DNA of 64,000 nt from Dehalococcoidia bacterium (GCA_963667465.2 CAXXDN010000002.1:1824001-1888000); one strand, 5' to 3'; shown: positions 20,237-61,460, counted from the stretch's first letter. Notes: generated by a model from the sequence alone, not told the origin. Program-made: numbers and translations.

Positions 20237-20335
20237 GGGCGAATGGCGGCGCGCTACGGGGTGGCGCTACCCTCGCGGCAGCCGATCGGCGCGGCCGGGC
20301 GGGCCTGGGCCGGGCGATCAGGGAGGACAGCGCGC

Positions 20336-20626
20336 ATGCCTCGATACGTCGTGCTCTACCGCTTCACCGACTCCGGGCGGAAGCATCTGAAGGAGACGGT
20401 GCACCGCGCCAGCGAAATCCGCGAGCTGAATGAGGCCGCGGGCTTCGACGTGCTCGCCCACTACTGGACGCAGGGCCACTACGACCTCGTGACGGTGGTG
20501 GACGCGCCAAGCGAGGAGGCGATGATGAACGGCCTGTTCAGCATCGCCGAGTCGGGCAACGTCTCCAGCGAGACGCTGCGCGCCTTCACGGACGAGGAGA
20601 TGCAGCGGATCATCGGCCCCGCGTAG
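20336..20626 (+). CDS. GYD domain protein
   Basis: MPRYVVLYRFTDSG, YWTQGHYDLV, GNVSSETLRAF; GGGAGG RBS. Confidence 0.85.
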   Translation: MPRYVVLYRFTDSGRKHLKETVHRASEIRELNEAAGFDVLAHYWTQGHYDLVTVVDAPSEEAMMNGLFSIAESGNVSSETLRAFTDEEMQRIIGPA

Positions 20627-20627
20627 C
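20593..20627 (+). repeat. 35 bp direct repeat, left copy (GYD gene 3' end)
   Basis: CGAGGAGATGCAGCGGATCATCGGCCCCGCGTAGC, identical to 22332-22366. Confidence 0.95.
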
Positions 20628-20793
20628 ACGGCGGCCGGGGGCGGCGCGGGCCGGGCAGCGTGGCCATGCGGCAGTGTGGTCGGTCCTCACCGGAAATCGA
20701 AGCCCGGATCTCTTCCGCGCTTCACCGACCCGGAGTCCTCTGCACGCCCTGCCCGCAACAACAGATCCCTGTTACCATGGGTTCTCTTTGGGA

Positions 20794-20829
20794 GCGTATT
20801 ACCTGTACGCATTAGCGTAGGTTGCTAAT
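20794..20829 (+). promoter_or_regulatory. Putative higBA promoter/operator
   Basis: AT-richer stretch with inverted repeats GCGTA-N7-TACGC and ATTAGC-N7-GCTAAT just before the higB GTG. Confidence 0.55.
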
Positions 20830-20831
20830 CT

Positions 20832-21125
20832 GTGCGTATACTGTCCAAACGGACATTGCGAGAGTTCTGGGAGCGACACCCTGATGCCGAGCATGCGCTC
20901 CTCGCTTGGTACCGCGAGGTCGAGAAGGAGGATTGGAGTACACCTGCACAGCTGATGGACGGGTATCCAGCCGCCAGCATCGTCGGCACCGACAGGGCAG
21001 TCTTCAGGATCAAGGGCAACAGCTACCGGCTGGTGGCGCGGATCAACTACCGGAAGCGCATCGTCTACGTGCGATTCATAGGGACGCACGCGGCATATGA
21101 CCGTGTAGACGTGGAGGAGGTGTAG
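20832..21125 (+). CDS. higB: HigB family toxin
   Basis: MRILSKRTLREFWERHPDA, VFRIKGNSYRLV, RFIGTHAAYD. Confidence 0.92.
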   Translation: MRILSKRTLREFWERHPDAEHALLAWYREVEKEDWSTPAQLMDGYPAASIVGTDRAVFRIKGNSYRLVARINYRKRIVYVRFIGTHAAYDRVDVEEV

Positions 21126-21129
21126 GAAC

Positions 21130-22365
21130 ATGCAGGCCATCGCACCAATCCGCACCGAGGAAGACCTCGAGCGAGCCCTCGCTCGGATCGACGAGATCTT
21201 CGACGCCGCAGCCGGCACTCCGGAGAGCGACGAGCTCGACGTGCTCGCCGATCTCGTCGAGTTGTACGAGTCCCGGGACGAGCCGTTCGGCTACCCCGAT
21301 CCGATCGCTGCCATCGAGTTCCGCATGGAGCAGGCGCAGTTGAACCGCCGCGACCTGATCCCCCTCATCGGGAGTAGCGCAAGGGTCGCCGAGGTGCTCG
21401 CTGGCAAACGCACCATCACGATGGCGATGGCGCGTGCGCTGCACCAGCATCTCGGAATCCCTGCCGATGTTCTGCTCCGGGAACCGCGCAGGGATGCCGG
21501 TGTCGTCGACTTTTTGAAGTTCCCGCTGAAGGAGCTGGCGAAGCGCAATTGGATCCGGGATATCCCCGACCTGAAAGGCAGCGCCGAGGAACTGATCCGC
21601 GAGTTGATGAGGCGGGCGGAAGTGCGGGAAGCAGCACTCTCAGCCAGCTACCGCAAGAACGACCACCAGCGAGTCAACGCAAAGACCGACGAATACGCGC
21701 TCAGGGCGTGGTGCTGGCAAGTAATGGCCGAGGCCAATGCTCGCCTACCCGAGAGCCCCTACGAGCCCGGGACGGTAACGCCGGACTTCCTCAGACAGGT
21801 GGCGCGCCTGAGCCCGCACGAGGACGGACCCAGGCGGGCCAGGGACTTCCTTGCGGAACACGGCATCGCCCTCGAAGTCGTGAAGCACCTACCTCGTACG
21901 CATCTCGACGGTGCGGCGCTGCGTCTCGCCGACGGCCGCCCGGTGATCGGCCTCACCCTCCGCTACGACCGGATCGACAACTTCTGGTTCACGCTCCTGC
22001 ACGAGCTTGCGCATGTCGGCCTGCACTTCGACGGCGGGGAGGACATTTTGTTCGTCGACGACCTCACGCTCCGCTATGAGCAGGGTGGCGACACCCATCC
22101 GAAAGAGACGCAGGCCGACGAGCGGGCCAGCGAGGCGCTCATCCCACAAGCCGACTGGGACGGCAGCCGCGCTTGGGAGAAACCGACCGGGATGGCAGTT
22201 CTCAGCCTCGCACACAGGGCCGGGGTCCACGCAGCCGTCGTGGCAGGCCGGATTCGCCACGAGACGGGGAACTACCGACTGCTCTCTCAGTTCGTCGGGG
22301 CCGGCCAGGTTCGGACTCAGTTCGAGTCGACCGAGGAGATGCAGCGGATCATCGGCCCCGCGTAG
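21130..22365 (+). CDS. higA: HigA antitoxin fused to an ImmA/IrrE (M78-like) metallopeptidase domain
   Basis: PIRTEEDLERAL, PDPIAAIEFRMEQ plus HTH, then LTLRYDRIDNFWFTLLHELAH (HExxH). Confidence 0.88.
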   Translation: MQAIAPIRTEEDLERALARIDEIFDAAAGTPESDELDVLADLVELYESRDEPFGYPDPIAAIEFRMEQAQLNRRDLIPLIGSSARVAEVLAGKRTITMAMARALHQHLGIPADVLLREPRRDAGVVDFLKFPLKELAKRNWIRDIPDLKGSAEELIRELMRRAEVREAALSASYRKNDHQRVNAKTDEYALRAWCWQVMAEANARLPESPYEPGTVTPDFLRQVARLSPHEDGPRRARDFLAEHGIALEVVKHLPRTHLDGAALRLADGRPVIGLTLRYDRIDNFWFTLLHELAHVGLHFDGGEDILFVDDLTLRYEQGGDTHPKETQADERASEALIPQADWDGSRAWEKPTGMAVLSLAHRAGVHAAVVAGRIRHETGNYRLLSQFVGAGQVRTQFESTEEMQRIIGPA

Positions 22366-22366
22366 C
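22332..22366 (+). repeat. 35 bp direct repeat, right copy (forms the higA 3' end)
   Basis: Identical to 20593-20627; both proteins end EEMQRIIGPA*. Confidence 0.95.
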
Positions 22367-22380
22367 GCGGCCGGGGCCGC

Positions 22381-22809
22381 TCAGCCAGACTGCGACGGAG
22401 CCTGGTCGCAGTTGAATTGCCAGTTGATGCCGAACTTGTCCGTGCAGGATCCGAAGTAGGCGCCCCAGAACATCTCCTCGAGGGGCATCGTCACGACGCC
22501 GCCCTCGGAGATCTTCGCGAAGAACTGGTCCGTCTCCTCCCTGGTGGCCGGCATGCAGGAGATCGAGAAGTTGTTGCCCGGCTGCGTCGGCTCGGGCGAC
22601 CAGGATGGCGTGTCGCTGCCCATCAGCACACTCGACCCGATCGGGTACGAGACGTGCATGACGAGGTCACGCTCGCCCTCGGGAACCGGCATGTCGTCGG
22701 GCCCGTCGCCGAAGGTCATCAGCTCGAACTCTCCGCCGAAGACGGAGCGGTAGAACTCGAAGGCCTCCCGGCAGTCGCCGTTGAAGCGCAGGTAGGTGTA
22801 GAGCGTCAT
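22381..22809 (-). CDS. VOC family PhnB/YjdN-like protein
   Basis: YLRFNGDCREAFEFYRSVFGG, VMH, LMGSD, MPLEEMFWGAYFG..TDKFGINW. Confidence 0.9.
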   Translation of the reverse strand: MTLYTYLRFNGDCREAFEFYRSVFGGEFELMTFGDGPDDMPVPEGERDLVMHVSYPIGSSVLMGSDTPSWSPEPTQPGNNFSISCMPATREETDQFFAKISEGGVVTMPLEEMFWGAYFGSCTDKFGINWQFNCDQAPSQSG

Positions 22810-23018
22810 GTATGCACCCCGTTCCCGGATGGCCTGGCGGGCCGACTCGCGACCGCTGGCACAGCGATGTTACTCCGGCCGTCCCGATAGTAACCAGCAC
22901 CAATCCTCAGCGCCGCGTTGGTTGGCAGACGCTGCGGCCCCCGTATAATCCGGCCCACGAGGCGTCAGGGCCGCGCTCCCGCCAGACGGGGCGCATCGCA
23001 AGCTTCGGGGAGGCGTGG

Positions 23019-23594
23019 ATGAGCGAAGCACGAGACACGAGCTGCCGCGATGAGTGCGCGCCGCACTTCGGCCAGCGAGGGCCATCCAGGTTCTCGCGCG
23101 CGGAACTGAACGCGCCGATGATCTGGAACTTCGCGGAGTCCGTCCACGACGCCAACCCTGTCTACTGGGACGAGACCTACGCGAAGCAGACGCGATTCGG
23201 CCGCATCATCGCCCCGCCGCACTCGATCATGACGATGTCCGGCGGCCACTGGTGGGCGCCCGACTACATCCTCGAGCGCGAGGAGCAGGAGATCGAGGCG
23301 CAGGGCGACGACCCAACCGAGACGATTCGCGAGATCGTCGCGAAGTATGGCTACACGACCGCCACCAACGTCACCCGCGAGGACGAGTTCCTGCAGCCGT
23401 ACGGCCCGGGCGACGGCCGCATCAAGCAGACCAGCTACGTCGACGACGTCAGCGAGGAGAAGCAAACGGCCGTCGGCAAGGGCGTCTTTATCATCACGAT
23501 CATCGAGTATCGGCGCGAGGTTGACGACGAGTTGATCGCCCGCGCCCGCAACGTGCTGCTGATGTACGACTCGAGCCAGCCGCGGGACAGCTAG
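23019..23594 (+). CDS. MaoC-like hot-dog dehydratase subunit
   Basis: IWNFAESVHDANPVYWDE..A...RFG.IIAPP, KQTAVGKG.F; GGGGAGG RBS. Confidence 0.8.
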   Translation: MSEARDTSCRDECAPHFGQRGPSRFSRAELNAPMIWNFAESVHDANPVYWDETYAKQTRFGRIIAPPHSIMTMSGGHWWAPDYILEREEQEIEAQGDDPTETIREIVAKYGYTTATNVTREDEFLQPYGPGDGRIKQTSYVDDVSEEKQTAVGKGVFIITIIEYRREVDDELIARARNVLLMYDSSQPRDS

Positions 23595-23619
23595 CCCGCC
23601 AGCGCCAGGGAGGAACACC

Positions 23620-24051
23620 ATGGCCTTCTTCGAGGACCGCGATTGGGACACCGTGTTCGAGGGCGCCAGCCTGCAGGCGCTTGAGTTCGGGCCGATCACC
23701 ATGACCACCCAGGTCATGGACGCCTCGGGCACGCGCGACCTCTACCCGATCCACCACGACCGGGAGTTCGCGAAGGCGAACGGAGCGCGCGACATCTTCC
23801 TCAACACGATGTGGTACCAGGGTCTGCTCGGACGCTTCGTGAACGAGTGGGGCGGGCCGGAGTCCTTCATCCGCAAGCTCAGCTTCGACATGCGGGCGAC
23901 GAACTGCCCGGGCGACCTGCTGACCGTGCGCGGCACGGTGACGAAGAAGTACGAGCAGGAGGGCCAGAAGCTGGTTGACCTGGACGTGCGGATCGACAAC
24001 CAGATCCAGCCTGACACCGTGACCGCCCGGATCACACTTGAGCTCGTCTAG
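23620..24051 (+). CDS. MaoC-like hot-dog dehydratase subunit
   Basis: TRDLYPIHHDREFA (D-x4-H dyad), DIFLNT, PGDLLTVRG. Confidence 0.85.
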   Translation: MAFFEDRDWDTVFEGASLQALEFGPITMTTQVMDASGTRDLYPIHHDREFAKANGARDIFLNTMWYQGLLGRFVNEWGGPESFIRKLSFDMRATNCPGDLLTVRGTVTKKYEQEGQKLVDLDVRIDNQIQPDTVTARITLELV

Positions 24052-24105
24052 CCTCGCCGGGCGTGTTGACCAGCCGCCCGCGGGCTTGAGCCGGGACCGC
24101 TCGCC

Positions 24106-26481
24106 ATGAGCATCCTCGCTGGCGTCCGCGTCGTCGCGATCCCGGGCGCGATGGGCAGCGCCGCCTGGACAGCGAAGCACCTCGCCGACTGGGGCGCGGA
24201 CGTCACGCTGCTCGAGCCGCCCGAGGGCGCGGCGCTACGCGAAGCGCCACCGTGGTACGAGCTGGCCGGCGAACGCCGCAGCGCGACCTGGACGTGGGTC
24301 TCGCGCGGGGCGACCTCCGTGCGCGTCGGCGAAGGTCTGGCGACCACGCCGCCCGACGCCCGCACCGCCTGCGAGCAGGCGGACGTGGTAGTCGTCGACG
24401 CGGACATGACCGAGCGCATGCTGGGACTCGCGCCCAACGCGCTGCGCGGCGCCCTCGAGGGCCGGACGACCGTCCTGCTGATCACGCCGTTCGCACTGGA
24501 CGGTCCGTACGCGGACTACCGCGCGTCCGACCTCGGAGTGAACTCGCTCGGCGGCTGGACGGGGATGCTCGGCGAACCGGACCGCGAGCCGCTGCGGCCG
24601 GGCGGGGACATGAACCCGCGCGTGACCGGCGTCTACGGCTTCGACTCGTTACTGGTCGCGCTGCACCACCAGGCGCGCGGCGCGGCCCCCGCGTACATCG
24701 AGCTCTCGCAGCAGGCGGTCGCGGCCGCGAGCCTGACCGCGCCGTGGATGGTCTACAGCATGACCGCGGGCGCGGGGGCGATGCAGCGGCGGCCCTCACA
24801 GTGGCCGCACAGCGTGCTGCCCTGCAAGGATGGCTGGGCGGCGATCTCTCCGCTCACCTTCCAGCACTGGGAGCTGCTCTGCCAACTGCTCGGGATCGAC
24901 GACATCCTCGAGGAGTCGTGGGGGCGCGACCCGGCGTGGCGGCAGGAGCACGGCAACGATCTGCTGCCGCGCGTGGAGCCCTGGTTCGCGGCGCGCACGC
25001 GCGAGGAGATCTACACCGAATCGCAGGCCTGGCGCCTGCCGGCCGGCCCCGTCGACACCGTCGCACAGCGCGAGGACTGCCCGCAGCTCAACGCGCGCGG
25101 CTTCTTCCTCGAGCAGGAAATCGACGGCGCAACGGTGAAGGCGCCGCGCGTCCCCTACCTGCTCAGCGCCGCCGACCCGAGCGAGCGCGGCGACCTGGCC
25201 GAGGCGGAGCGGCCCGCCCTCGATGGTGGTGAGAGCGCGTCCGGCGGCGAGGGGCCTGCGCTGCCTTTCGAGGGCATTCGCGTGGTCGATTTGACGTGGT
25301 TCTGGTCGGGTCCGCACTGCACGATGACGATGGGCGCGCTCGGCGCCGACGTGATCAAGGTGGAGTCGATCCAGCGGCCGGACTCCTACCGCTACACCGC
25401 CGTCGACGCCTCGGCGGAGCGCTGGTATGAGCGCGGGGCGCTCTGGAACGACACCAACCCGAATAAGCGCAGCGTCACGCTGAACCTGGACAGCGAGACG
25501 GGGATGGCGTTCCTCGTGCAGCTGCTCGAGCAGGCAGACGTGGTCATCAGCAACTTCTCGAACCGTGTGCTGCCGAACCTCGGGCTCACGGTCGAGCGCT
25601 TCCACGAGATCAACCCGCGGCTGATCGTCGCGCTGCTGCCCGGCTACGGACCGGACGGGCCGTGGGGCCACTTCGTCGGCTACGGCGTGAGCTTCGAGCA
25701 GGCCGTGGTCGCACAGCTGACCGGCTACCCCGACGACCGCCCGCTGATCAACGGCGGCTTCTCAGACACGCTCGTCGGCATGCACGCGCTCGCGGCGATC
25801 ACGCTCTCGCTGCGCGACCGGGAGCGCACCGGCCAGGGCAGCTACGCCGAGGTGCCGCAGTGCGAGGTGCTCGACAGCCTGCTCGGCCCGGAGCACATCG
25901 CCGTCGGCCACGGCGAGCCCTCGCGGATGCGGATGGCGAACCGCCACGAGTCGATGGCGCCGCACAACGTCTACCCGGTCGCCGGGCAGGACGAGTGGAT
26001 CAGCATCGCCGTGGCCAGCGACGAGGAGTTCGCCGCCCTCGCGACGGCGATCGATGCGCCGCACATCGCCGAGGACGCGCGGTTCGCGACGGCCGCCGGT
26101 CGCAAAGAGCACGAGGACGCCCTCGACGCCGCGATCGCGGCGGCCGTCCGCGATCGCGACCTGGTGGACCTGGAGCGTGCCCTCCAGGCGGCCGGTGTGA
26201 TGGGCTGCCGCGTCTCCAAGCCTTACCTGCTCACCGAGGACGAGAACCTCGTCCACCTCGACTTCTTCCAGAAGCTGGACCGCGAGCTGACGGGCACGCA
26301 CCCGTTCAAGACCTTCCCCTTCCGCTTCAGCACCTTCGACCTGCGCCACCGCATGCCGCCACCGCTGCTCGGCCAGCACAACCACGAGGTGCTGGCCGAA
26401 CTCGGCGTGGACGACGACGCGATTCGCGCGCTCGAGGAGCAGCAGGAGATCGGCAGCGAGCCGCTCGGCTTCAACGCCTGA
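24106..26481 (+). CDS. Two-domain fused CoA-transferase family III
   Basis: N-half LAGVRVV..LADWGADV lacks the Asp; C-half PFEGIRVVDLTWFWSGP..GADVIKVES..GFSDTLVG has it. Confidence 0.9.
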   Translation: MSILAGVRVVAIPGAMGSAAWTAKHLADWGADVTLLEPPEGAALREAPPWYELAGERRSATWTWVSRGATSVRVGEGLATTPPDARTACEQADVVVVDADMTERMLGLAPNALRGALEGRTTVLLITPFALDGPYADYRASDLGVNSLGGWTGMLGEPDREPLRPGGDMNPRVTGVYGFDSLLVALHHQARGAAPAYIELSQQAVAAASLTAPWMVYSMTAGAGAMQRRPSQWPHSVLPCKDGWAAISPLTFQHWELLCQLLGIDDILEESWGRDPAWRQEHGNDLLPRVEPWFAARTREEIYTESQAWRLPAGPVDTVAQREDCPQLNARGFFLEQEIDGATVKAPRVPYLLSAADPSERGDLAEAERPALDGGESASGGEGPALPFEGIRVVDLTWFWSGPHCTMTMGALGADVIKVESIQRPDSYRYTAVDASAERWYERGALWNDTNPNKRSVTLNLDSETGMAFLVQLLEQADVVISNFSNRVLPNLGLTVERFHEINPRLIVALLPGYGPDGPWGHFVGYGVSFEQAVVAQLTGYPDDRPLINGGFSDTLVGMHALAAITLSLRDRERTGQGSYAEVPQCEVLDSLLGPEHIAVGHGEPSRMRMANRHESMAPHNVYPVAGQDEWISIAVASDEEFAALATAIDAPHIAEDARFATAAGRKEHEDALDAAIAAAVRDRDLVDLERALQAAGVMGCRVSKPYLLTEDENLVHLDFFQKLDRELTGTHPFKTFPFRFSTFDLRHRMPPPLLGQHNHEVLAELGVDDDAIRALEEQQEIGSEPLGFNA

Positions 26482-26499
26482 GCAGCGGAGGGCCAGCCA

Positions 26500-26943
26500 A
26501 TGGTCGTCGACGAGTCCGGACCAATGCGCCCGCTGCCCCTCCCGACGGATGACTCCGCCCCCTACTGGGAGGCGATGAACCGCCACGAGCTGCTGCTGCA
26601 GCGCTGCCTCGACTGCGACCGCGTCGTCTACCTGCCCGCCCCGATGTGCGACGAGTGCCAGTCGTTCAACCTCGAGCACTTCGTCTCCAGCGGACGCGGC
26701 CACATCTACAGCTGGACAGTGGTGCACAACATGGGACACCCGGCCTTCGTGCCGCCCTACGCGGTGCTGCTGGTGGAGGTCGAGGAGGGCCCACGCATCC
26801 TCGCGCAACTGCACGCGCCCGACGGCGACGAGTGGGAGCGCCTGGAAGTGGGCCTGCCGGTGCGCGTTGCCTGGGACGAGAGCGAGCCGGAGCAGACCTT
26901 CGCGATCTTCGAGATCGACACCGGCGCGAGCGAAGCAGCCTGA
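26500..26943 (+). CDS. DUF35/ChsH2-like Zn-ribbon plus OB-fold protein
   Basis: PYWEA...ELLLQRCLDC...P...CDEC, GRGHIYSWTVV, VEVEEGPRI. Confidence 0.88.
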   Translation: MVVDESGPMRPLPLPTDDSAPYWEAMNRHELLLQRCLDCDRVVYLPAPMCDECQSFNLEHFVSSGRGHIYSWTVVHNMGHPAFVPPYAVLLVEVEEGPRILAQLHAPDGDEWERLEVGLPVRVAWDESEPEQTFAIFEIDTGASEAA

Positions 26944-27001
26944 TCGGCGCGCCCGGCGCGCACGCCCGGGGGCGCCCGCAGACCCATTCCGGGAGGACCG
27001 C

Positions 27002-27967: not shown

Positions 27968-28059
27968 CCAGCGCAACACACGCAGTTCACATCATCCGGT
28001 CCGGTCGAGGGCGGGCCCGCGCTTGCGCGGGCGGCAGCGTGTCGTTCAGACCTCGGCGG

Positions 28060-29939: not shown

Positions 29940-30059
29940 CTGCTCGTCCCCTGTCGTTCGCTGGGTCGTTCGCTGGCGCGCCGCCGCATTCTAGCGAATC
30001 GCGGCGCGGCGCGCGCAAGTGATGAGGGTCCGGCGGCGCAGCGCTTGCTCCAGATACAA

Positions 30060-30087
30060 CTCGGCCCCCGGTGATCCGGGGGCCGAG
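30060..30087 (-). terminator. GC hairpin after the binding-protein gene (terminator or stabiliser)
   Basis: CTCGGCCCCCGG-tgat-CCGGGGGCCGAG perfect 12 bp stem, followed by TTGTAT on the minus strand. Confidence 0.6.
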
Positions 30088-30111
30088 TAGCCTTTAGCGA
30101 CGGACTGCGGG

Positions 30112-35022: not shown

Positions 35023-35119
35023 GACCTCGAGCGCGCCGCGCGGGGCCGCTGGGGGCCGCTGGCCCGCAGCGGCGATCAGGAATGAACGGCGGGCGGGCGC
35101 AGTGCCCGCCCGCTGCTCG

Positions 35120-35926: not shown

Positions 35927-36023
35927 GGGTTGCCCCTCCGTACGTCCGCCGCCCATCCATCGTACGACAGGGACGCGACTCAAGGGCTCGCGGCTGTGGC
36001 AGTGCATCAGGCGGGTCTGACTG

Positions 36024-37355: not shown

Positions 37356-37368
37356 GGCCGCGCCGGAA

Positions 37369-38289: not shown

Positions 38290-38310
38290 GCCGCCCTCCT
38301 CTCCGCGCGA

Positions 38311-39198
38311 TCAGATCCGCAGCGCGACGCGCAGACCGTGCACGATCGCGAGGCGCAGCTTCACGGCGCGCGTCACGCGAGGCCGCGCACTGAGCGTGTC
38401 GTAGCCGGCGCGCTCGATCGCATCGAGGATCGCCTCGCCGCCCAGGCGGAAGAGCCGGATGTCGGTGCGCACGGAGCGCGGGACGAGCGCCTCGAGGGCG
38501 CTGCCCTCGGCGAAGAGCGCCCGTGCGCGCTCCACCTGGAAGCGCATCAGCTCCCGGAAGTTCTCGTCAAACCGCCCCTGGATGATCTGAGCGTCGTCGC
38601 AGCCGAAGCGGCGCAGGTCCTCCTGCGGCAGGTAGCTGCGCCCCTTCCCGATGTCGACCGAGACGTCCTGCCAGAAGTTCGCGAGTTGCAGTCCGATGCA
38701 GGTCGCGTCGGAGAGCGCGACGCGCTCGGCGTCCTGGTAGCCGAGGACAGCGAGCACCATCCGGCCCACCGGCGTGGCGGAGTAGCTGCAGTAGTCGAGC
38801 ACGTCGTCGTAGGTCTCGAAGCGGGAGACGCGCTGGTCGATGCGGTTTGCCTCGATCAGGCGCAGGAACGGGTCGAGCGGGATCGCGCGGTCCTCGATGG
38901 TGCGCGCGAGGGCCGTCAGCAGTGGACGCGCCGGCTCGCCCGCGACGGTCTCGCGCAACTCGCGCTCCCACTCGTCGAGGAGGGCGAGACGGTCGCCCTC
39001 CACCTCGTCGCCGAGGTCGTCGGTGTAGCGGCAGAAGGCGTAGACGGCGAAGAAGTGCGGGCGCAGCTTGCGCGGGAGGAACCACGAGACGACGGTGAAG
39101 TTCTCGCCGTGGCTGCGCGCGTAGCGCTCGCACCAGCGGTACGCCTCGCGTGGGTCCGCGCGCCCGTCCCGCAGCCGTTCGCCGGTGTTCGCGCTCAT
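38311..39198 (-). CDS. hpnC: Hydroxysqualene synthase
   Basis: HGENFTVVS, TDDLGDE, YC..SATPVGR, LQLANFWQDV; start re-called to ATG 39198. Confidence 0.9.
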   Translation of the reverse strand: MSANTGERLRDGRADPREAYRWCERYARSHGENFTVVSWFLPRKLRPHFFAVYAFCRYTDDLGDEVEGDRLALLDEWERELRETVAGEPARPLLTALARTIEDRAIPLDPFLRLIEANRIDQRVSRFETYDDVLDYCSYSATPVGRMVLAVLGYQDAERVALSDATCIGLQLANFWQDVSVDIGKGRSYLPQEDLRRFGCDDAQIIQGRFDENFRELMRFQVERARALFAEGSALEALVPRSVRTDIRLFRLGGEAILDAIERAGYDTLSARPRVTRAVKLRLAIVHGLRVALRI

Positions 39199-39316
39199 CG
39201 CGGGTGGTCCGTTCGCGACGGCCGAGGCAGCGCCCCCGGCCCGTCCGGCATTCGTGATGGCCTGTGCGGACAGGGTATCAAGTCTCAGCTCAGACCTGTC
39301 GCGAGAGCCCGGCGGC

Positions 39317-39808
39317 TCAGACCGCGTCGCGCAGGTACGCGGTCGCGAGGGCGTCGGCGTACTCGTTCCAGCGTGCGCCGTCGTGCGCGCGAATCCAGCG
39401 GATCCGGACATGCGGCCGCGCCTGCGTGAGCGCCCAGGCGCGCTGCACGAGGTCGAGGTTCTTGACCGGGCCGGCGCGGCGCTTCCAGCCGCGGCGCTCC
39501 CAGCCGGCGGCCCACTCGTTCAGCGTCCGCACCACAAGGTCGCTGTCGCTGTAGACGTCTTCCGCCTCGGCCGGGTCGATCAGCTCGAGGCCGGCGATCA
39601 TCGCTTCGAGCTCCATGCGGTTGTTGGTCGTGGAGGGATGCGAGCCGTGGCGCTCGTCGAGGATCACGCCGTCGCGCACGCGGACCGCGCCCCAGCCGCC
39701 GGGGCCGGGGTTGCCGTAGCAGGAGCCGTCCGTGAAGACGCCGCTGCCCGGTCCCGCACTGAACCGGGCGAGCACCTGTTGCGTGGTCATGAAGCCGTCG
39801 CGCGGCAT
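39317..39808 (-). CDS. rnhA: Ribonuclease HI
   Basis: FTDGSCYGNPGPGGWG, TTNNRMEL, YSDS, VKNLDL, WIRAH, NEYADALA. Confidence 0.93.
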   Translation of the reverse strand: MPRDGFMTTQQVLARFSAGPGSGVFTDGSCYGNPGPGGWGAVRVRDGVILDERHGSHPSTTNNRMELEAMIAGLELIDPAEAEDVYSDSDLVVRTLNEWAAGWERRGWKRRAGPVKNLDLVQRAWALTQARPHVRIRWIRAHDGARWNEYADALATAYLRDAV

Positions 39809-39848
39809 CGCTGCTCCCTTGTCCCGCCCGCTCGCATCCGCGAGCCGG

Positions 39849-41393
39849 CTACTGCACGGCGATCCCGTTGTAGAGCATCACGGGATCTCCCTGGAAGACA
39901 TCGCTCTCGAGGTTGGCGATGACGATGATCGGGCGGTCCGCGATCACGACCGCACCGCCGACCCAGCCGTCGGGCAGGGTCGAGTCCTCCCACTGGCGCA
40001 GCGTGCGGAAGTGATTGACGGTTGCGCCCGGGGAGAGCCGCCCCGTGGGGAAGTGGCTGGAGAAGTAGAGCACGTTGACGCGCGCGCGGGAACCATCGAA
40101 GGCGACCACCCGGAACCACGAGTTCCAGCCATTGAAGCCGCCCCAGGGGCCGAAGTTCTTGTTGAGCACCGGCAGCACGATCTCGCGCGCGGCCTCGGCG
40201 GCCGTGAAGCCGCGGTAGTCGGCGAGCGCCCCGTCGGCCGAGCGGCGCTGTGCGACCACGGCAATCGGGTACTCGGCGCGGATCCGCACCGTCCCGAAGA
40301 ACGTCTCGGGCAGCGAGACGTCATCCGGCAGGCACCCGGCGATACCGTCGTAACGCTGGTCACAGGTCAGCACCGAGAGGACCGTCAACTCGTGCTCGAT
40401 CTCGATCTCGTCGCCCTCGGCGTTGTGGCCGGCGAAGAGGAGCTGCAGCTCGTTGGGCACCGGCGGGATGCTGTTGAAGATCCGGAAGCGCGTCGTCCAG
40501 GTGGTCTGGCCCTCGCTGGCGTTGCGGTCGACGATCGGGAGCACCACGTCGCGGCTCATCTCGGTGTAGTCGATGCCGCGGTAGGTCGCGAGGCCCGGTC
40601 CCTCGCGTTCGCGCGTGTCGACCACCATCGCCGGCAGTTGATCCTGCGCGGGCACGCCCGACCCCGTCGTGAGGCCCTGGACCACGGCCGAGCCGTCGAA
40701 GCCCTCCGGCACCGGCAGGCTGTGCTCGTCGCGCAGCAGCGTGCCGCGTGGCGGGACCAGGGCGCCCCCGCGCGGGCAGCCCTCCGTGGCCCCGGGAGGA
40801 TCGATGGTGGTCGGCCGGGTCGCGCCCTCGTCGTAGTAGACGAGCTGGAAGCAGGCCTCGAGGGTGTCGCTGGTGTTCTCGACGGAGATGCGGGAGACGT
40901 ACTCGGCGGTGCGCTGGACGACGGGCGCGAAGTGCGTCGCGCTCCCCGGTGCGAGGCTGAGCGCGTCTCCGCCGATCCGGAACAGCCCGTCCTGGAAGAC
41001 GTCGCGGGCGAGCAGGGCGACGAAGGGCTGATCGACCGTAACCACGGCGGAGCCGCGATAGCCCTCGTCCAGGGGTGCGTAGCCCTGCTGGAAGAACGAC
41101 CAGCCGTCGCCGGGCGCCAGCGCGTCGCACTCGCCGCTGCGTGGGCAGCGGTCGCTGCCCATCAAGTCCCCGCCGAGGTCAAAGAACTGGACCTCGATGG
41201 TGGCGGCGCGCCGTCCGATGTTCTGGACGCGCAACCAGGAGTTCTCTTCGCCGAGGTCGAGCGGGTCGGCCTCGCTCCGGGGAGCGTCGGCGAGGGACGC
41301 GAGGGCGAACGCGGCGGCGAGCAGCGCCAGCAGCGCGAGCGGCCGCAGGCGCGGAGGCGCGGGGAACCAGAAGCGCACAGGCGCGCCCTCCAT
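39849..41393 (-). CDS. Secreted protein with about four internal beta-rich modules
   Basis: Signal peptide; repeating S/T.xR(V/I)xN ... G(S)AVV ... P(F/I)(V/A) ... (L/A)P(V/I) units. Confidence 0.7.
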   Translation of the reverse strand: MEGAPVRFWFPAPPRLRPLALLALLAAAFALASLADAPRSEADPLDLGEENSWLRVQNIGRRAATIEVQFFDLGGDLMGSDRCPRSGECDALAPGDGWSFFQQGYAPLDEGYRGSAVVTVDQPFVALLARDVFQDGLFRIGGDALSLAPGSATHFAPVVQRTAEYVSRISVENTSDTLEACFQLVYYDEGATRPTTIDPPGATEGCPRGGALVPPRGTLLRDEHSLPVPEGFDGSAVVQGLTTGSGVPAQDQLPAMVVDTREREGPGLATYRGIDYTEMSRDVVLPIVDRNASEGQTTWTTRFRIFNSIPPVPNELQLLFAGHNAEGDEIEIEHELTVLSVLTCDQRYDGIAGCLPDDVSLPETFFGTVRIRAEYPIAVVAQRRSADGALADYRGFTAAEAAREIVLPVLNKNFGPWGGFNGWNSWFRVVAFDGSRARVNVLYFSSHFPTGRLSPGATVNHFRTLRQWEDSTLPDGWVGGAVVIADRPIIVIANLESDVFQGDPVMLYNGIAVQ

Positions 41394-41514
41394 CCCGCCA
41401 CCAGAGATGATACGGGAGAGCGCAGACCTCCGCGCACGGCACGCTTCAGGCCGGCGGCGTGATGCTCGCTCCAACAATAGCCACCAAGTTATACTAATGC
41501 CAGGAGGTACTACC

Positions 41515-41790
41515 ATGGCCTACGTGGTTGGATCCAAGGGCCAGGTCGTGATCGCGAAGGACATTCGCGACCGGCTCGGAATCGGCCCCGGGTGGGTCGC
41601 GATGCAGCGCGTTACCGACGACCATGTCGAGATGCACTTCCTGCCTCCCGACCACAACGAGTCCCTGAAGGGCAGCCTCGCCGCCTACGTGCGCCGCGAA
41701 TCACGTCCCGACGATTGGGACGGAGCGAGGGACCGAGCCTGGCGCTATGCCGCGGAGGAGCGTGAACGCGAGCCTGACCCGTCCCGGTGA
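41515..41790 (+). CDS. AbrB/MazE-type (VapB-like) antitoxin
   Basis: VGSKGQVVIAKDIRDRLGIGPG; AGGAGG RBS and TATACT upstream. Confidence 0.85.
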   Translation: MAYVVGSKGQVVIAKDIRDRLGIGPGWVAMQRVTDDHVEMHFLPPDHNESLKGSLAAYVRRESRPDDWDGARDRAWRYAAEEREREPDPSR

Positions 41791-42197
41791 GCGCGCTGCT
41801 CGACACGTCGATGCTCGTTCGGTATCTCACCGGAGATCCGCCTGACCTCGCCGATGTCAGCGCGCGGGTGATCGACGGCGAGGATTCGCTGCTGATCACG
41901 GATGTCGTGCTCGTGGAGGCAGCGTACGTGCTCCGCTCCGAATACGATGTGCCGAGGCAAGCTATCGTCGATCAGCTGATTGCCCTGCTCCGGAAGGCGA
42001 ATATCGAGACCTTCCGGCTGGACAAGCACCTCGTGATCGAGGCGCTGTTCCTGTGCCGGCCGTCGGGCCGCGTCTCCTTTGGCGATGCGCTGATCTGGGC
42101 AACTGCGCGGTCGGAGCCGGATCCGATTGTCTACTCGCTCGATCGCCGTTTTCCGGACGAGGGGATCACAGTTCTGCAATCGGCTGCGGGTCGGTAG
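41787..42197 (+). CDS. vapC: PIN-domain VapC toxin
   Basis: LLDTSMLVRYL, VLVE, SFGDALI, SLDRRF. Confidence 0.87.
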   Translation: MSALLDTSMLVRYLTGDPPDLADVSARVIDGEDSLLITDVVLVEAAYVLRSEYDVPRQAIVDQLIALLRKANIETFRLDKHLVIEALFLCRPSGRVSFGDALIWATARSEPDPIVYSLDRRFPDEGITVLQSAAGR

Positions 42198-42290
42198 CCG
42201 AAGGAAGAGACCGCCCCTCGCGGGATCGGGAACTCGACGCCCGGATCAGGGCGGTGCTACGATCGTGGTCCTGGCGCTTCGCGGCGCCGT

Positions 42291-42367
42291 CGGGGTGTAG
42301 CTCAGCTTGGCAGAGCGCGTCGTTCGGGACGACGAGGTCCGCAGTTCAAATCTGCGCACCCCGACCA
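42291..42367 (+). tRNA. tRNA-Pro(CGG)
   Basis: CGGGGTG/CACCCCG acceptor stem, anticodon arm CGTCG-TTCGGGA-CGACG, GTTCAAAT T-loop, encoded CCA. Confidence 0.96.
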
Positions 42368-42470
42368 TCCAACTCATCCGCTCCGCCGCCGGGGCGGCCC
42401 ACAGGCTGTTCCAGACGCGGGCGCTGCCCGTGGCGCCACGGGCAGCGCCCCGGCTACGAGAGAACCAGCC

Positions 42471-43214
42471 GTGACCGCACCCCCCGCCGCCGACCGCACG
42501 CGCCGACCCCGGATCCTGGTCACGCGCGCCGAGGAGGTACCCGGCGAGCGCTGGGATGACTACGCCGATCGCCTCGAGGCAGCAGGCGCGGATTGGGAGG
42601 CGCTCGACCTCGAGGACTGGCAGCCCGGTACGCGCATCGAAGACTACGACGGTTTGATCATCAGCGGCGGGGTCGACGTCGATCCTGCCCGCTACGGCGA
42701 GGCGCCCTCCAGCTATGTCACCGCCACGAACGCGGCGCGCGACGAGTTCGAGACCGCCCTGCTGCTGGACGCCCTCGAGCGCGACCTGCCGGTGCTGGGG
42801 ATCTGCCGCGGGCACCAACTCCTCAACGTCGCGCACGGCGGCTCGCTGCTGCAGCACATCGCCGAGCGTGAGCCGCACCGCGCCCGCAGCGGCGAGGGCG
42901 GCGCGATCGACTCCGGCTGGCACGACGTCACGCTCGCGGAGGGCTCGCTCCTCGCGGCCCTGTTCGAGGCGCCCTCGCTGCACGTCAACTCGCGGCACCA
43001 CCAGGCCGTCACGCTCGACCGCCTCGCGCCGGGTCTGCGCGTGGCAGGCACGACCCCGGACGGCATCGTCGAGGCGCTGGAGCGCCCCGACCGGCGCTGG
43101 GTGCTCTCCGTGCAGTGGCACCCGGAGCGCGAGGAGGACGCCGCGAGCCAGCGCCCGATCTTCGAGGCGTTCGTGGAGGCCTGCGCCGCAACGCCGCAAC
43201 GGGATGCCGGGTGA
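42471..43214 (+). CDS. Gamma-glutamyl-amide hydrolase (PuuD / peptidase C26)
   Basis: SGGVDVDPARYG, PVLGICRGHQLLNV, VNSRHHQAV, VQWHPE. Confidence 0.9.
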   Translation: MTAPPAADRTRRPRILVTRAEEVPGERWDDYADRLEAAGADWEALDLEDWQPGTRIEDYDGLIISGGVDVDPARYGEAPSSYVTATNAARDEFETALLLDALERDLPVLGICRGHQLLNVAHGGSLLQHIAEREPHRARSGEGGAIDSGWHDVTLAEGSLLAALFEAPSLHVNSRHHQAVTLDRLAPGLRVAGTTPDGIVEALERPDRRWVLSVQWHPEREEDAASQRPIFEAFVEACAATPQRDAG

Positions 43215-43684
43215 GCGATTCGGCTGCGGGCTTTCGCTACTTCGCGTACGGCTCCAACCTCAGCGAGGCGCGGCTGCACGAGAACTGCCCCTCCGCCCGC
43301 CTTGAGGCGATCGCGCGACTGCCCGGCTACCGGCTGGCGTTCACGCGCCGCAGCGAGCGCTGGGGTGGCGGCGTCGCCGACGTCCGCCCCGAGGCCGGCG
43401 CCGAGGTCCGGGGCATCGTCTGGCGCATCGCTGACCCGGACGGGGACGCCCTCGATCGACAGGAGGGTGTGCACGCCACGCCGCCGCGCTACCGGCGGAT
43501 CGAGGTCGCCGTGACCAACGAAGCCGGCGCAGTCCTCGACTGCCTCGCCTACCAGGTGGTGGAACCGCAGGCGGAGCACATCGCGCCGTCGATGGCCTAC
43601 CTCGCAACGATGTTGCGCGGCGGGCGGGCGGCGGGGTTGCCGCGGGCGTACCTCGCGCGGATCGAGGCGATCGCGGCCGGCTGA
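43211..43684 (+). CDS. Gamma-glutamylcyclotransferase family protein
   Basis: YFAYGSNL, LPGYRLAF, LDRQEG, PSMAYL; GTGA overlap with upstream gene. Confidence 0.88.
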   Translation: MSDSAAGFRYFAYGSNLSEARLHENCPSARLEAIARLPGYRLAFTRRSERWGGGVADVRPEAGAEVRGIVWRIADPDGDALDRQEGVHATPPRYRRIEVAVTNEAGAVLDCLAYQVVEPQAEHIAPSMAYLATMLRGGRAAGLPRAYLARIEAIAAG

Positions 43685-43688
43685 CGGG
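43644..43688 (+). repeat. 45 bp direct repeat, left copy (GGCT gene 3' end)
   Basis: GGGCGTACCTCGCGCGGATCGAGGCGATCGCGGCCGGCTGACGGG, identical to 45339-45383. Confidence 0.95.
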
Positions 43689-43724
43689 CGCGAGGGTGGA
43701 CTGCGGCGAACGGATAATCTAAAG

Positions 43725-44750
43725 TTGTCTCGCCGAAGGCTCTCCCCGCCACGACTCGGCGAGTGCGTGCCACGTCCTTCGATTGCTCGTTCCGCGGAAC
43801 AGGTCGCTGCACCGGAGATCCACCCGCCCACATTGGCGGTCGGCTCCTCGTCGTCGTTCAGCGCGTACGAAATCCACCACGCGGACGCCTTTCGCTGGCT
43901 CACCCACGCCGAACCGAACTCTATCGAGGCGGTAGTCACGGACCCGCCGTACGGGGTGGTGGAGTACACCCCCGCACAACTCGCGAAGCGGCGGAACGGC
44001 AACGGCGGAGTGTGGCGCATCCCACCGGCGTTCGACGGTGCGAAGAGGCAGCCGCTGCCTCGCTTCACCGCACTCGGCGAACGTGAGCGCCGCGCGATCC
44101 CGCGCTTCTTCGAGCGCCTCGCTGGACTCCTCTTCCGTGTCGTTGTGCCTGGCGCCCACGTCTTCATCGCTACGAACCCGGTGGTGTCCCATCTCGTCTA
44201 CGAACCGTTCGTCGGCGCAGGCTTCGAGAAGCGCGGCGAGATCGTGCGCATCGTGAAGACCCTGCGCGGCGGCGATCGCCCGAAGAACGCGCACGAGGAG
44301 TTCCCGGACGTCAGCGTGATGCCGCGGTCAAGCTGGGAGCCGTGGGGCCTGTTCCGCAAACCGCTCGAGGGCCGCGTACAGGACAACCTGCGTAAGTGGG
44401 GTACGGGGGGTCTCCGGCGAACCTCGGCTCAGGCGCCGTTCCGGGATGTCCTCGAGTGCGCCCCGGCCCGTGGACGGGAACGAGCGATCGCCCCGCATCC
44501 GTCACTCAAGCCGCAGTTGCTCATGCGCCAGCTCGTGCGGGCCTCGCTCCCCCTCGGCGAGGGCGTCGTCCTCGACCCGTTCATGGGGTCGGGCGCAACT
44601 ATTGCGGCTGCTACCGCGCTCGGCATCCCCTCGGTCGGTATCGAAGTCGATGCGGAGTTCTTCCGGCTCGCGGAGGAGGCCATCCCGAAGCTGGCAGCGC
44701 TGCATCCACAACAACCGCTGGAACCCGATGCGACCACAAGAATTCGATAG
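43725..44750 (+). CDS. N4-C/N6-A DNA methyltransferase, beta class
   Basis: VVTDPPYG precedes HPSLKP and VLDPFMGSG; start uncertain (TTG 43725, GTG 43767 or later). Confidence 0.9.
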   Translation: MSRRRLSPPRLGECVPRPSIARSAEQVAAPEIHPPTLAVGSSSSFSAYEIHHADAFRWLTHAEPNSIEAVVTDPPYGVVEYTPAQLAKRRNGNGGVWRIPPAFDGAKRQPLPRFTALGERERRAIPRFFERLAGLLFRVVVPGAHVFIATNPVVSHLVYEPFVGAGFEKRGEIVRIVKTLRGGDRPKNAHEEFPDVSVMPRSSWEPWGLFRKPLEGRVQDNLRKWGTGGLRRTSAQAPFRDVLECAPARGRERAIAPHPSLKPQLLMRQLVRASLPLGEGVVLDPFMGSGATIAAATALGIPSVGIEVDAEFFRLAEEAIPKLAALHPQQPLEPDATTRIR

Positions 44751-45333
44751 CACAGTCGCCCGGCCACCCGGCCTCACGATCGCGGCGATTCGCAGCGCGA
44801 CCGACTACATCGAGCGCGAGCTCGCTGACCTCCTCGACATCTACTTCGAGCAAGCGAACCTCTTCAGCGGCCTGGTCGGCATCTACGGGACACGAGCACT
44901 CGACATCCACAGCGTGTACGAGAAGCACCGCAACCGCGACCTTGCGGCGCAACGATTCCCCGACCTCCGCCGCAGAGGCAGCGGCGATGCGCCCCGCCCT
45001 GAGGACTCGCTCGAGTCAAAGGCGAGCATCCGCCCGTGGGCGCTGCAAGCGCACTATGACCATCCAGGCTGGTACATCGTGTGGCGCTACCTCATCGACA
45101 CCACCGGCACGTACGAGCGCGAGCGGCCAGTGATCGTCTGGCGAATCGATCTCGCGTTCCTGCAGCAGGGCGACTGGAAGTACGAGGGCAGCGGAGCCGG
45201 ACCGGAGGGAGGCGGCCGCACGCACACGTTCGGCTTGCACCGGCCCGCGACCAGGTTGCGCGGGAAGGCAGTGTACGCGCGCTCCGACGTGGTTCTGCGA
45301 GGCGGCAAGCCGGGCCCAGCGAACGGCGACTGA
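44728..45333 (+). CDS. Putative PD-(D/E)XK restriction endonuclease
   Basis: FPDL...LESKAS motif; overlaps the MTase end; inside the repeat-flanked cassette. Confidence 0.6.
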   Translation: MRPQEFDSTVARPPGLTIAAIRSATDYIERELADLLDIYFEQANLFSGLVGIYGTRALDIHSVYEKHRNRDLAAQRFPDLRRRGSGDAPRPEDSLESKASIRPWALQAHYDHPGWYIVWRYLIDTTGTYERERPVIVWRIDLAFLQQGDWKYEGSGAGPEGGGRTHTFGLHRPATRLRGKAVYARSDVVLRGGKPGPANGD

Positions 45334-45338
45334 GCCAG

Positions 45339-45383
45339 GGGCGTACCTCGCGCGGATCGAGGCGATCGCGGCCGGCTGACGGG
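45339..45383 (+). repeat. 45 bp direct repeat, right copy
   Basis: Identical to 43644-43688; begins 5 bp after the nuclease stop codon. Confidence 0.95.
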
Positions 45384-61439: not shown

Positions 61440-61460
61440 GGGGATCGGAAGGGGATCCGG

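What the first reader, a model, noticed from the sequence alone, without database searches (positions are those of the whole stretch)
20593..45383. Two unrelated ~1.7 kb addiction cassettes, each inserted with an exact duplication of the upstream gene's 3' end and no recombinase
Seen: higB-higA lies between 35 bp perfect direct repeats (20593-20627 and 22332-22366; period 1739 bp). The MTase-nuclease pair lies between 45 bp perfect direct repeats (43644-43688 and 45339-45383; period 1695 bp). In both cases the repeat is the last codons, stop codon and a few extra bases of the preceding host gene. The two repeats are unrelated to each other. There are no terminal inverted repeats, and no integrase or transposase occurs in the 64 kb. 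Known: insertion with long target duplication has been described for restriction-modification genes in Helicobacter; IS target duplications are typically much shorter. Inference: a shared, recombinase-independent or trans-acting route places addiction modules at gene ends. Recombination between the repeats would excise the cassette cleanly, and the toxin or nuclease would select against that loss.
Basis: partly seen in the sequence, partly recalled or inferred. Interest (0 to 1): 0.8.

Follow-up and report, generated by a model that had tools for sequence, protein, structure and literature searches.

The report
Gene cassettes inserted with duplicated gene ends
Two small defence-gene cassettes in an uncultured sponge-associated Dehalococcoidia bacterium each sit between two copies of the last few codons of the neighbouring gene, a known but still unexplained, recombinase-free way for genes to enter and leave bacterial chromosomes that turns out to be used at least nine times in this one genome.

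Summary
Both repeat pairs are exact, at the stated coordinates, and each covers the host gene's last codons, its stop codon and 1 or 4 further bases. No recombinase lies in the window.

It belongs to a known kind: insertion with long target duplication (Nobusato 2000; Furuta 2010), described for restriction-modification genes. This scan has noted it before on other DNA.

New here:
- The 2.97-Mb genome holds nine such cassettes with 25-45 bp exact repeats. Four are toxin-antitoxin, defence or restriction-modification units. Five carry other or unknown cargo.
- All nine have an empty, single-copy site in at least one species of the same genus.
- Both sites in the finding are hot spots with alternative cargo. 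Site 1 can also carry hicAB, alone or in tandem. Site 2 carries the site-1 cassette type in two other species.
- The two cassettes are not recent insertions, because other species carry them at the same sites. Their perfect repeats probably reflect gene conversion.
- Three other cassettes occur only in this genome and have crisp duplications.

Cassette 1 matches components A and B of the PD-lambda-2 defence system and lacks C. Cassette 2 is a type II methyltransferase plus a likely PD-ExK nuclease.

How insertion happens remains inferred. Circles and empty alleles could not be tested with the reads available.

The parts
20243..20626 (+). Host gene 1: GYD-domain protein. Its last 10 codons and stop codon lie in repeat copy 1.
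   Evidence: Pfam PF08734, E 2.3e-25; ORF list.
20593..20627 (.). Direct repeat 1, copy 1. It is 35 bp exact, or 40 bp to 20632 with one mismatch.
20628..20831 (+). Left part of cassette 1. The first ~30 nt are host-type spacer, also present after the GYD stop codon in G001. The rest is the non-coding region upstream of the first cassette gene.
   Evidence: Sequence comparison. This part is 83% identical to G012/G017, against 93-94% for the cassette genes.
20832..21125 (+). Cassette 1, gene A: a HigB-family protein of 97 aa.
   Evidence: Pfam PF09907, E 1e-28; PADLOC PD-Lambda-2_A, E 1.9e-40, full length.
21130..22365 (+). Cassette 1, gene B: 411-aa protein with a C-terminal M78/ImmA-IrrE peptidase domain, matching PD-Lambda-2_B. 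Its last 11 residues and stop codon are encoded by repeat copy 2.
   Evidence: Pfam PF06114; PADLOC PD-Lambda-2_B, E 3.3e-132, profile positions 1-400 of 402. Relatives at other loci end 2-3 residues after the point where the host-derived tail begins.
22332..22366 (.). Direct repeat 1, copy 2.
22381..22809 (-). Convergent host gene of the glyoxalase/3-dmu-9_3-mt family. Its stop codon lies 15 nt after repeat copy 2.
   Evidence: Pfam.
43115..43684 (+). Host gene 2: AIG2/gamma-glutamylcyclotransferase-like. Its last 12 codons and stop codon lie in repeat copy 1.
   Evidence: Pfam PF13772 and PF06094.
43644..43688 (.). Direct repeat 2, copy 1 (45 bp exact).
43725..44750 (+). Cassette 2, gene M: N6/N4 DNA methyltransferase of type II.
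   Evidence: Pfam PF01555, E 4.9e-17; PADLOC MTase_II, E 1.1e-112.
44728..45333 (+). Cassette 2, gene R: a 201-aa candidate type II restriction endonuclease. The start codon is not certain.
   Evidence: No Pfam, NCBIfam or PADLOC match. It has 2596 homologues. P78-D79 and E96-x-K98 are invariant in 20 sequences. The model has pLDDT 73. The best fold matches are all type II restriction enzymes: NaeI Z 7.5, 3ndh Z 5.8, SfiI Z 5.4. Foldseek alone gave nothing significant.
45339..45383 (.). Direct repeat 2, copy 2. It starts 5 nt after the stop codon of gene R.
45466..48294 (+). Downstream host gene gyrA. Its upstream region follows repeat copy 2, as in the empty-site genomes.
   Evidence: Pfam; alignment.

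Best explanation
Both cassettes are insertions with long target duplication. A short piece of foreign DNA was joined into the chromosome at the very end of a host gene, and 25-80 bp of the target was copied to both sides. The host gene therefore stays whole.

Nothing in the cassettes carries out this step. The ends are not defined element ends.

The most likely origin (inferred) is illegitimate recombination by host replication or repair. One route is two template switches at microhomologies. The other is capture of a fragment at staggered breaks followed by fill-in.

After insertion, the two repeat copies serve as substrates for ordinary homologous recombination. This has three consequences:
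- it deletes the cassette cleanly, leaving an empty site with one copy;
- it keeps the two copies alike by gene conversion;
- it may let an excised or imported cassette re-enter the same site in related cells.

Selection keeps only insertions that leave the flanking genes intact. In a compact genome that places them at gene ends.

What is shown: the architecture, the empty sites, the hot spots and the within-genome likeness of the copies. What is inferred: the insertion chemistry and any circular intermediate.
For: **How common it is in this genome.**
- A whole-genome scan looked for isolated, unique, exact direct repeats of at least 22 bp, 200-15000 bp apart. It gave 14 pairs.
- Nine of them, of 25-45 bp, bracket small cassettes.
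- For 6, and possibly 7, the repeat covers or abuts the stop codon of a high-GC3 host gene.

**Empty sites.** All 9 have a single-copy empty site in at least one congener.

**Repeats and ends.**
- The repeats at the nine sites share no motif, and the cassette ends share none either.
- At site 1 the right junction cuts off the native last 2-3 codons of gene B and fuses it in frame to the host tail. That argues against a defined element end.

**Recent insertions.**
- Three cassettes occur only in G000: DUF3800, a 270-aa ORF and a 138-aa ORF.
- The first two have 59-61% GC, against 70.5% for the genome.
- They have crisp duplications, and sister genomes hold exactly one copy.

**Hot spots.**
- Site 1 carries the higB-like unit, hicAB, both in tandem (G017), or nothing.
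- Site 2 carries the restriction-modification unit, the higB-like unit (G013, G015, with a remnant of the nuclease gene's 3' end in G015), other inserts, or nothing.

**Likeness of the two copies within a genome.**
- Both copies share substitutions that no other genome has at the M50 site (G000, G010) and at the NUDIX site (G000, G002). This was read by eye.
- At site 2 each genome's degenerate copy 2 resembles its own copy 1.

**Cassette identity against flank identity.**
- Site-1 gene B is 93% identical to G012/G017, against 84-87% for the flanks.
- The M50 cassette is 99.1% identical to G001, against 95% for the flanks.
- The M50 cassette is 81% identical to G010, against 92% for the flanks.

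**Recombinases and host functions.**
- No recombinase lies in the window.
- The genome has no Cas1. It has one Ku gene and a ComEC homologue.
Against: - No intermediate was seen. The runs are kept as k=31 contigs, which cannot tell an empty allele or a circle from the filled one when the repeat is longer than 30 bp.
- The genome does encode recombinases that could act in trans: 4 tyrosine-recombinase matches, 2 large serine recombinases, an rve-type insertion sequence in 4 copies and DDE transposases.
- In 5 of 6 well-defined cases the exact repeat ends 0-4 nt after the stop codon. That is tighter than random insertion plus selection would predict.
- I explain this by faster decay of the non-coding part of the duplication, which is visible at site 1. 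I did not test that explanation.
- The higB-like unit at site 2 in G013 and G015, and the restriction-modification unit at another locus in G006, have no detectable flanking duplication. Not every move leaves one.
- The likeness of the copies could also come from repeated re-insertion rather than gene conversion.
Confidence: 0.6

Rival explanations
1. The repeats are attachment sites of integrative elements that have lost their integrase, or that are moved in trans by one of the genome's tyrosine or serine recombinases. These would be cis-mobilisable elements inserted at gene 3' ends.
For: - Repeats of 25-45 bp covering a gene's 3' end are typical of attL/attR.
- The genome has 4 PF00589 and 2 PF00239 matches.
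- Fixed hot spots with alternative cargo and tandem arrays recall integration hot spots.
Against: - Nine sites have nine unrelated repeat sequences and no shared core.
- The cassettes are only 0.6-1.7 kb and carry no recombinase remnant.
- Cassette ends are not conserved, and one end lies inside a cassette gene.
- The nearest recombinase genes are 11-32 kb outside the window.
- The duplication length varies, reaching about 70 nt in G012 at site 1.
Confidence: 0.12
2. Homology-addressed cassettes. Each cassette carries a captured copy of the host gene's end as a portable address. It cycles as a circle by RecA-mediated excision and Campbell-type re-integration, and it spreads between related species to the same site. 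In this reading the duplication is the product of integration, not of a staggered cut.
For: - The same cassettes sit at the same sites across species, with cassette-to-flank identity mismatches that indicate horizontal exchange.
- The repeat copies are identical within a genome, including lineage-specific changes.
- At site 1 the spacer after copy 1 is a diverged homologue of the spacer after copy 2.
- A ComEC homologue is present.
Against: - It does not explain the first insertion.
- It does not explain the G000-only, low-GC cassettes, whose donors are unlikely to have carried 31-37 bp identical to a G000 intergenic sequence.
- Homology of 25-45 bp is near the lower limit for RecA-dependent recombination (general knowledge, not tested here).
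- No circles were observed.
Confidence: 0.2
3. The duplication came first. A gene end was duplicated by slippage and DNA later landed between the copies by chance. Alternatively, the repeats are assembly artefacts.
For: Furuta et al. 2010 list chance insertion between existing repeats as one class (PMC2853133, introduction passage read).
Against: - No congener shows a duplicated gene end without a cassette. Every cassette-free site examined holds one copy.
- Nine independent cases make chance unlikely.
- Independent runs reproduce both junctions, and other assemblies carry the same structure.
Confidence: 0.03

Closest known systems
Insertion with long target duplication of restriction-modification genes. 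Sources: Nobusato et al. 2000, Gene 259:99 (recalled and seen only as a citation, not read); Furuta, Abe and Kobayashi 2010, NAR 38:2428 (PMC2853133; abstract, passages and sections 15 and 18 read).
   Same: - Small gene units with no mobility gene.
- They are flanked by direct repeats longer than 30 bp that match a single copy at an empty site in a related genome.
- The repeats often span a stop codon.
- Gene fusion at a junction occurs.
- The duplication length is variable.
   Different: - Here the same architecture holds for toxin-antitoxin-like and defence units and for unknown cargo: 7 of the 9 cassettes have no restriction enzyme.
- The DNA breakage by the restriction enzyme that those authors suggested as the common cause cannot be required.
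- Also added here: nine cases in one genome, hot spots with alternative cargo and tandem arrays, and repeat copies kept alike within genomes.
Integrative elements at gene or tRNA 3' ends (tyrosine or serine integrases), and tandem ssrA islands of Dehalococcoides (the latter recalled, not checked).
   Same: - Insertion at a gene's 3' end that restores the gene.
- Direct repeats of tens of bp.
- Tandem arrays at one site.
   Different: - There is no integrase in or near the cassettes.
- Each site has its own unrelated repeat.
- Cassette ends are not defined.
PD-lambda-2 anti-phage system of E. coli (Vassallo et al. 2022, PMC9519451; passages read).
   Same: Cassette 1 genes match PD-Lambda-2_A and _B over their full lengths.
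   Different: The third component, C, was required for defence in E. coli. It is absent between the repeats. Function here is untested.
Integron gene cassettes, and minimal mobile elements of Neisseria (both recalled).
   Same: Small promoter-poor or self-contained cassettes are exchanged at fixed chromosomal positions, with toxin-antitoxin cargo common.
   Different: No attC sites or integron integrase were seen. The repeats are copies of host genes rather than element sequence. The Neisseria elements have no target duplication.

Membership tests
Insertion with long target duplication (criteria of Furuta et al. 2010, section 9) | The flanking direct repeats align with a single copy at an empty site in a related genome. 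| tested here: met
   Site 1: G005 and G002 have one copy. Site 2: G001, G005 and G010 have one copy.
Insertion with long target duplication (criteria of Furuta et al. 2010, section 9) | The target duplication is longer than 30 bp. | tested here: met
   35 bp (40 bp with one mismatch) and 45 bp exact. It reaches about 70 nt at site 1 in G012.
Insertion with long target duplication (criteria of Furuta et al. 2010, section 9) | The insert is under 20 kb and has no mobility gene. | tested here: met
   The inserts are 1704 and 1650 bp. No recombinase family was found in the cassette ORFs or in the window.
Insertion with long target duplication (criteria of Furuta et al. 2010, section 9) | The insert holds both R and M gene homologues (the criterion of their screen). 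| tested here: met
   This holds for cassette 2 only: a methyltransferase plus a PD-ExK candidate with restriction-enzyme fold matches of middling Z. Cassette 1 has neither gene, so it fits the mechanism class but not their screen.
Site-specific integrative element (att sites) | A recombinase gene lies within or next to the element. | tested here: not met
Site-specific integrative element (att sites) | Elements moved by one enzyme share a common core sequence. | tested here: not met
   The nine repeats were printed side by side and show no shared motif by eye. No formal motif search was run.
DNA transposon or non-autonomous derivative | Terminal inverted repeats and a short target duplication of fixed length. 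| tested here: not met
   There are no inverted repeats at the cassette termini. Duplications are 25-46 nt and variable.
PD-lambda-2 defence system (Vassallo et al. 2022) | Components A (HigB-like) and B (HTH-peptidase). | tested here: met
   PADLOC E-values of 1.9e-40 and 3.3e-132, full length.
PD-lambda-2 defence system (Vassallo et al. 2022) | Component C, required for defence in E. coli. | tested here: not met
   Gene B ends inside repeat copy 2, and the convergent host gene follows 15 nt later. A C gene elsewhere in the genome was not searched for.
Type II restriction-modification system | A restriction endonuclease partner next to the methyltransferase. | tested here: inconclusive
   The PD...ExK residues are invariant. 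The top fold matches are restriction enzymes, but with Z of only 7.5 or less, and Foldseek found nothing significant. No activity data exist.

The most novel reading that the evidence does not exclude
In this Dehalococcoidia genus, small defence, toxin-antitoxin and other accessory cassettes form a recombinase-free cassette system.

A host repair or replication process inserts them at gene ends and makes a 25-80 bp duplication. The duplicated gene end then acts as a built-in address and hinge. It allows clean excision, keeps itself intact by gene conversion under selection on the host gene, and lets the cassette re-enter the same hot spot in related species.

The result is integron-like shuffling of cargo at fixed sites without any integrase. 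The tight placement of the repeat boundary at stop codons would then be a consequence of this conversion-plus-selection regime, or of a real preference of the insertion step for gene ends.
Probability: 0.25. Interest if true: 0.7.

Novelty: new member of a known kind. Interest (0 to 1): 0.45.

Why it matters
Insertion with long target duplication has been known since 2000, but its mechanism is unexplained and it has been tied to restriction enzymes.

- **The restriction enzyme is not needed.** One genome here carries nine such insertions, most without any nuclease. The cause must therefore lie in the host or in the incoming DNA.
- **A natural time series.** The genus holds fresh insertions, old ones with homogenised repeats, tandem arrays, replaced cargo and clean deletions. 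The rates and direction of each step could be measured from these.
- **Practical use.** The pattern flags small defence and toxin-antitoxin units, and unknown cargo worth testing, in uncultured bacteria.

Tried and rejected
**Shared motifs.** I looked for shared terminal motifs or inverted repeats at the cassette ends and found none.

**Other copies without duplication.**
- I looked for a target duplication around the higB-like unit at site 2 in G015 and G013. Local alignment scored no better than shuffles.
- I looked around the restriction-modification unit at its other locus in G006. Only noise came back.

**Cas1 as a ruler-type integrase.** No Cas1 match was found in G000, which is 93.6% complete.

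**Reads.** All served runs are k=31 contigs. They confirm the cassette and its junctions but cannot show empty alleles or circles. The depth differences between flanks and cassette are not interpretable.

**Nuclease candidate.** Foldseek against the PDB gave nothing with E of 0.001 or below. Sequence search of the PDB, NCBIfam and PADLOC gave nothing.

**Literature.** Searches for toxin-antitoxin units inserted with long target duplication returned no paper describing it. The seven papers holding both terms were seen as a listing. In the two I opened (PMC2654758, PMC3874152) the phrase occurs only in the reference list.

The statements on shared substitutions rest on reading by eye.

**Pairs not followed up.** Five of the 14 isolated repeat pairs were not pursued: C1 252851, 779783 and 816641; C2 22379 and 474931. 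Two are 22-23 bp and could be chance. Two look like the genome's dispersed palindromic repeat.
Full report
**Observation**

The first repeat is 35 bp exact at 20593-20627 and 22332-22366, and 40 bp with one mismatch. The second is 45 bp exact at 43644-43688 and 45339-45383. The periods are 1739 and 1695 bp.

Copy 1 of each repeat is the end of a host gene:
- a GYD-domain gene: its last 10 codons, stop codon and 1 further base;
- an AIG2/gamma-glutamylcyclotransferase-like gene: its last 12 codons, stop codon and 4 further bases.

The window is G000:C2:1824001-1888000. The genome has two contigs, 2.97 Mb and 70.5% GC. Titles of related records place it in a genus of Dehalococcoidia, and the holders of the DNA are sponge metagenomes.

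Three order-3 Markov copies of the genome gave no exact direct repeat of 25 bp or more within 200-15000 bp.

Contigs of three independent runs reproduce cassette 2 and both junctions without a difference. They break inside the repeat, as a k=31 graph must.

**Cargo**

Cassette 1 encodes two proteins.
- The first is a 97-aa HigB-family protein. The second is a 411-aa protein with an M78/ImmA-IrrE peptidase domain.
- They match PD-Lambda-2_A and PD-Lambda-2_B over their full lengths.
- In E. coli that system has a third gene needed for defence. There, B alone was toxic and A rescued it (PMC9519451, passages read).
- No third gene lies between the repeats here.
- Gene B runs into repeat copy 2, so its last 11 residues are the host gene's tail. 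Relatives at other loci end 2-3 residues after the fusion point.

Cassette 2 encodes a type II N6/N4 methyltransferase and a 201-aa protein of no named family.
- That protein has 2596 homologues.
- P78-D79 and E96-x-K98 are invariant in a 20-sequence alignment.
- Its model (pLDDT 73) finds restriction enzymes as its best fold matches, with NaeI at Z 7.5. The scores are middling, and Foldseek alone found nothing significant.

**No recombinase**

- No recombinase family appears among 58 coding-like ORFs of the window. The window is otherwise core metabolism plus gyrA.
- The genome's tyrosine recombinases (4 matches), large serine recombinases (2), rve insertion-sequence copies (4) and DDE transposases (3) all lie outside the window.
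- No inverted repeats mark the cassette ends.

**Genome-wide pattern**

I scanned for exact direct repeats of at least 22 bp, 200-15000 bp apart, unique in the genome and with unrelated flanks. This gave 14 pairs. Nine of them bracket small cassettes:

| Repeat (bp) | Host gene end or position | Cargo |
|---|---|---|
| 35 | GYD-domain gene | HigB-like + HTH-peptidase (finding, cassette 1) |
| 45 | AIG2-like gene | methyltransferase + candidate nuclease (finding, cassette 2) |
| 36 | M50 peptidase gene | HigB-like + HTH pair |
| 26 | NUDIX gene | HicA/HicB |
| 31 | intergenic | DUF3800 protein |
| 37 | not assigned | 270-aa ORF, unknown |
| 34 | Lhr helicase gene, next to Ku | DUF732 membrane protein |
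| 27 | nuoF-like gene | unknown ORFs |
| 25 | a long ORF of uncertain coding status | 138-aa ORF, unknown |

- In six, perhaps seven, the repeat covers or abuts the stop codon of a high-GC3 host gene.
- The exact repeat ends 0-4 nt after the stop codon in five of them, and 12 nt before it at the NUDIX gene.
- The remaining five pairs were not followed up. Two are short enough to be chance and two look like a dispersed repeat.

**Relatives**

A gyrA tree splits the 18 congeners into three groups:
- A1: G000 with G001, then G009, G005 and G010;
- A2: G004, G011, G014, G012 and G017;
- a distant clade B.

Site 1 is interpretable in 10 of the 18 congeners.
- Two are empty, with one repeat copy: G005 and G002.
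- Three carry the higB-like unit: G012, G017 and G004. In G004 the first gene is truncated.
- Five carry only a hicAB unit on the other strand: G001, G009, G010, G014 and G011.
- G017 has both units in tandem. Its hicAB is itself bracketed by a ~26-nt duplication of the glyoxalase gene's end plus spacer.
- In G012 the duplication spans about 70 nt: the gene end, the stop codon and the whole spacer.

Site 2, among the 15 congeners searched.
- Four carry the restriction-modification unit: G004, G009, G011 and G012.
- Three are empty: G001, G005 and G010.
- Two carry the higB-like unit: G013 and G015. G015 also keeps a remnant of the nuclease gene's end.
- Two carry other inserts: G014 and G008.
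- Four are not interpretable.

All nine cassettes have a single-copy empty site in at least one congener. The DUF3800, 270-aa and 138-aa cassettes occur only in G000. They have crisp duplications against empty sister genomes.

**Age and dynamics**

- Identity of the restriction-modification unit follows species divergence: 88% to G009 and 83-86% to A2, against 94% and 90% for gyrA. It is therefore old, and the empty sites in A1 are probably deletions.
- The carriers other than G000 keep only a degenerate second copy, and each resembles that genome's own first copy.
- Site-1 gene B is 93% identical to G012/G017, while the flanks are 84-87% and gyrA 89.6%. G000 is also the only A1 member that has it. 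Together these suggest later horizontal arrival at the same site.
- The M50 cassette is 99.1% identical between G000 and G001 (flanks 95%), but 81% between G000 and G010 (flanks 92%).
- At the M50 and NUDIX sites both copies share substitutions found in no other genome (read by eye).
- Together these results point to ongoing recombination between the copies: deletion, conversion and possibly re-insertion.

**Mechanism**

- Site-specific recombination fits poorly. There are nine unrelated targets, undefined ends, one junction inside a gene, and no recombinase nearby.
- Transposition fits poorly. There are no inverted repeats, and the duplications are long and variable.
- The fresh, low-GC insertions argue that new duplications are made at naive sites. 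This favours illegitimate insertion by template switching, or by capture at staggered breaks with fill-in. Ku and ComEC are present and Cas1 is absent.
- Homologous recombination between the copies explains what happens afterwards.
- Because most cargos have no nuclease, the restriction-enzyme breakage proposed by Furuta et al. (section 18, read) cannot be the general cause.
- The pile-up of repeat boundaries at stop codons is not fully explained.

**Comparison and verdict**

[quoted passage not shown] The same scan has reported it on at least seven other genomes (unchecked notes).

The route is not specific to addiction modules, and these two cassettes are not recent.

The value lies in the density of cases in one genome and in the genus-wide record of gain, exchange, homogenisation and loss.

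Noticed in passing
window 41515-42197 and 42291-42367: A PIN-domain (VapC-like) gene with a small upstream ORF lies directly before tRNA-Pro(CGG), about 1 kb upstream of site 2. I did not check whether this pair is also a polymorphic cassette.
   Followed up: no
window ~61400-64000 and G000:C2:1885400-1904500; also C1:2700-9300: A dispersed, G+C-rich palindromic repeat family of about 45 nt occurs in many copies. Near the contig end there are large segmental duplications about 10 kb apart.
   Followed up: no
window 10384-11643 and 11719-12978: Two tandem acyl-CoA dehydrogenase paralogues hold long identical stretches at a spacing of 1335 bp. They sit among five CoA-transferase family III genes.
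   Followed up: no
G000:C2:896350-897177 (locus L006): The genome's single Ku gene lies directly beside one of the repeat-flanked cassettes, in a hot spot between Ku and the Lhr helicase gene. That hot spot is empty in G010 and holds different inserts in other species.
   Followed up: partly
L031 (G015:C1:1090800-1095300), about 100 nt after the stop codon of the B gene: A roughly 25-nt remnant of the restriction enzyme gene's 3' end survives downstream of the higB-like unit at site 2. One cassette therefore replaced the other there.
   Followed up: partly
loci L047-L126: The 400-aa HTH-peptidase protein of cassette 1 has relatives at about 60% identity in many phyla of metagenome-assembled genomes, several from sponge studies: Binatia, Vicinamibacterales, Nitrospirales, Caldilineaceae, Alpha- and Gammaproteobacteria, and Spirochaetia. 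This points to wide horizontal spread.
   Followed up: no
G000:C1:744898-745760 (locus L002) and G004:C1:195955-196440, G014:C4:848475-848960: The 138-aa ORF cassette, which is G000-only at its site, has 74-76% identical copies at unrelated loci in two other species.
   Followed up: no
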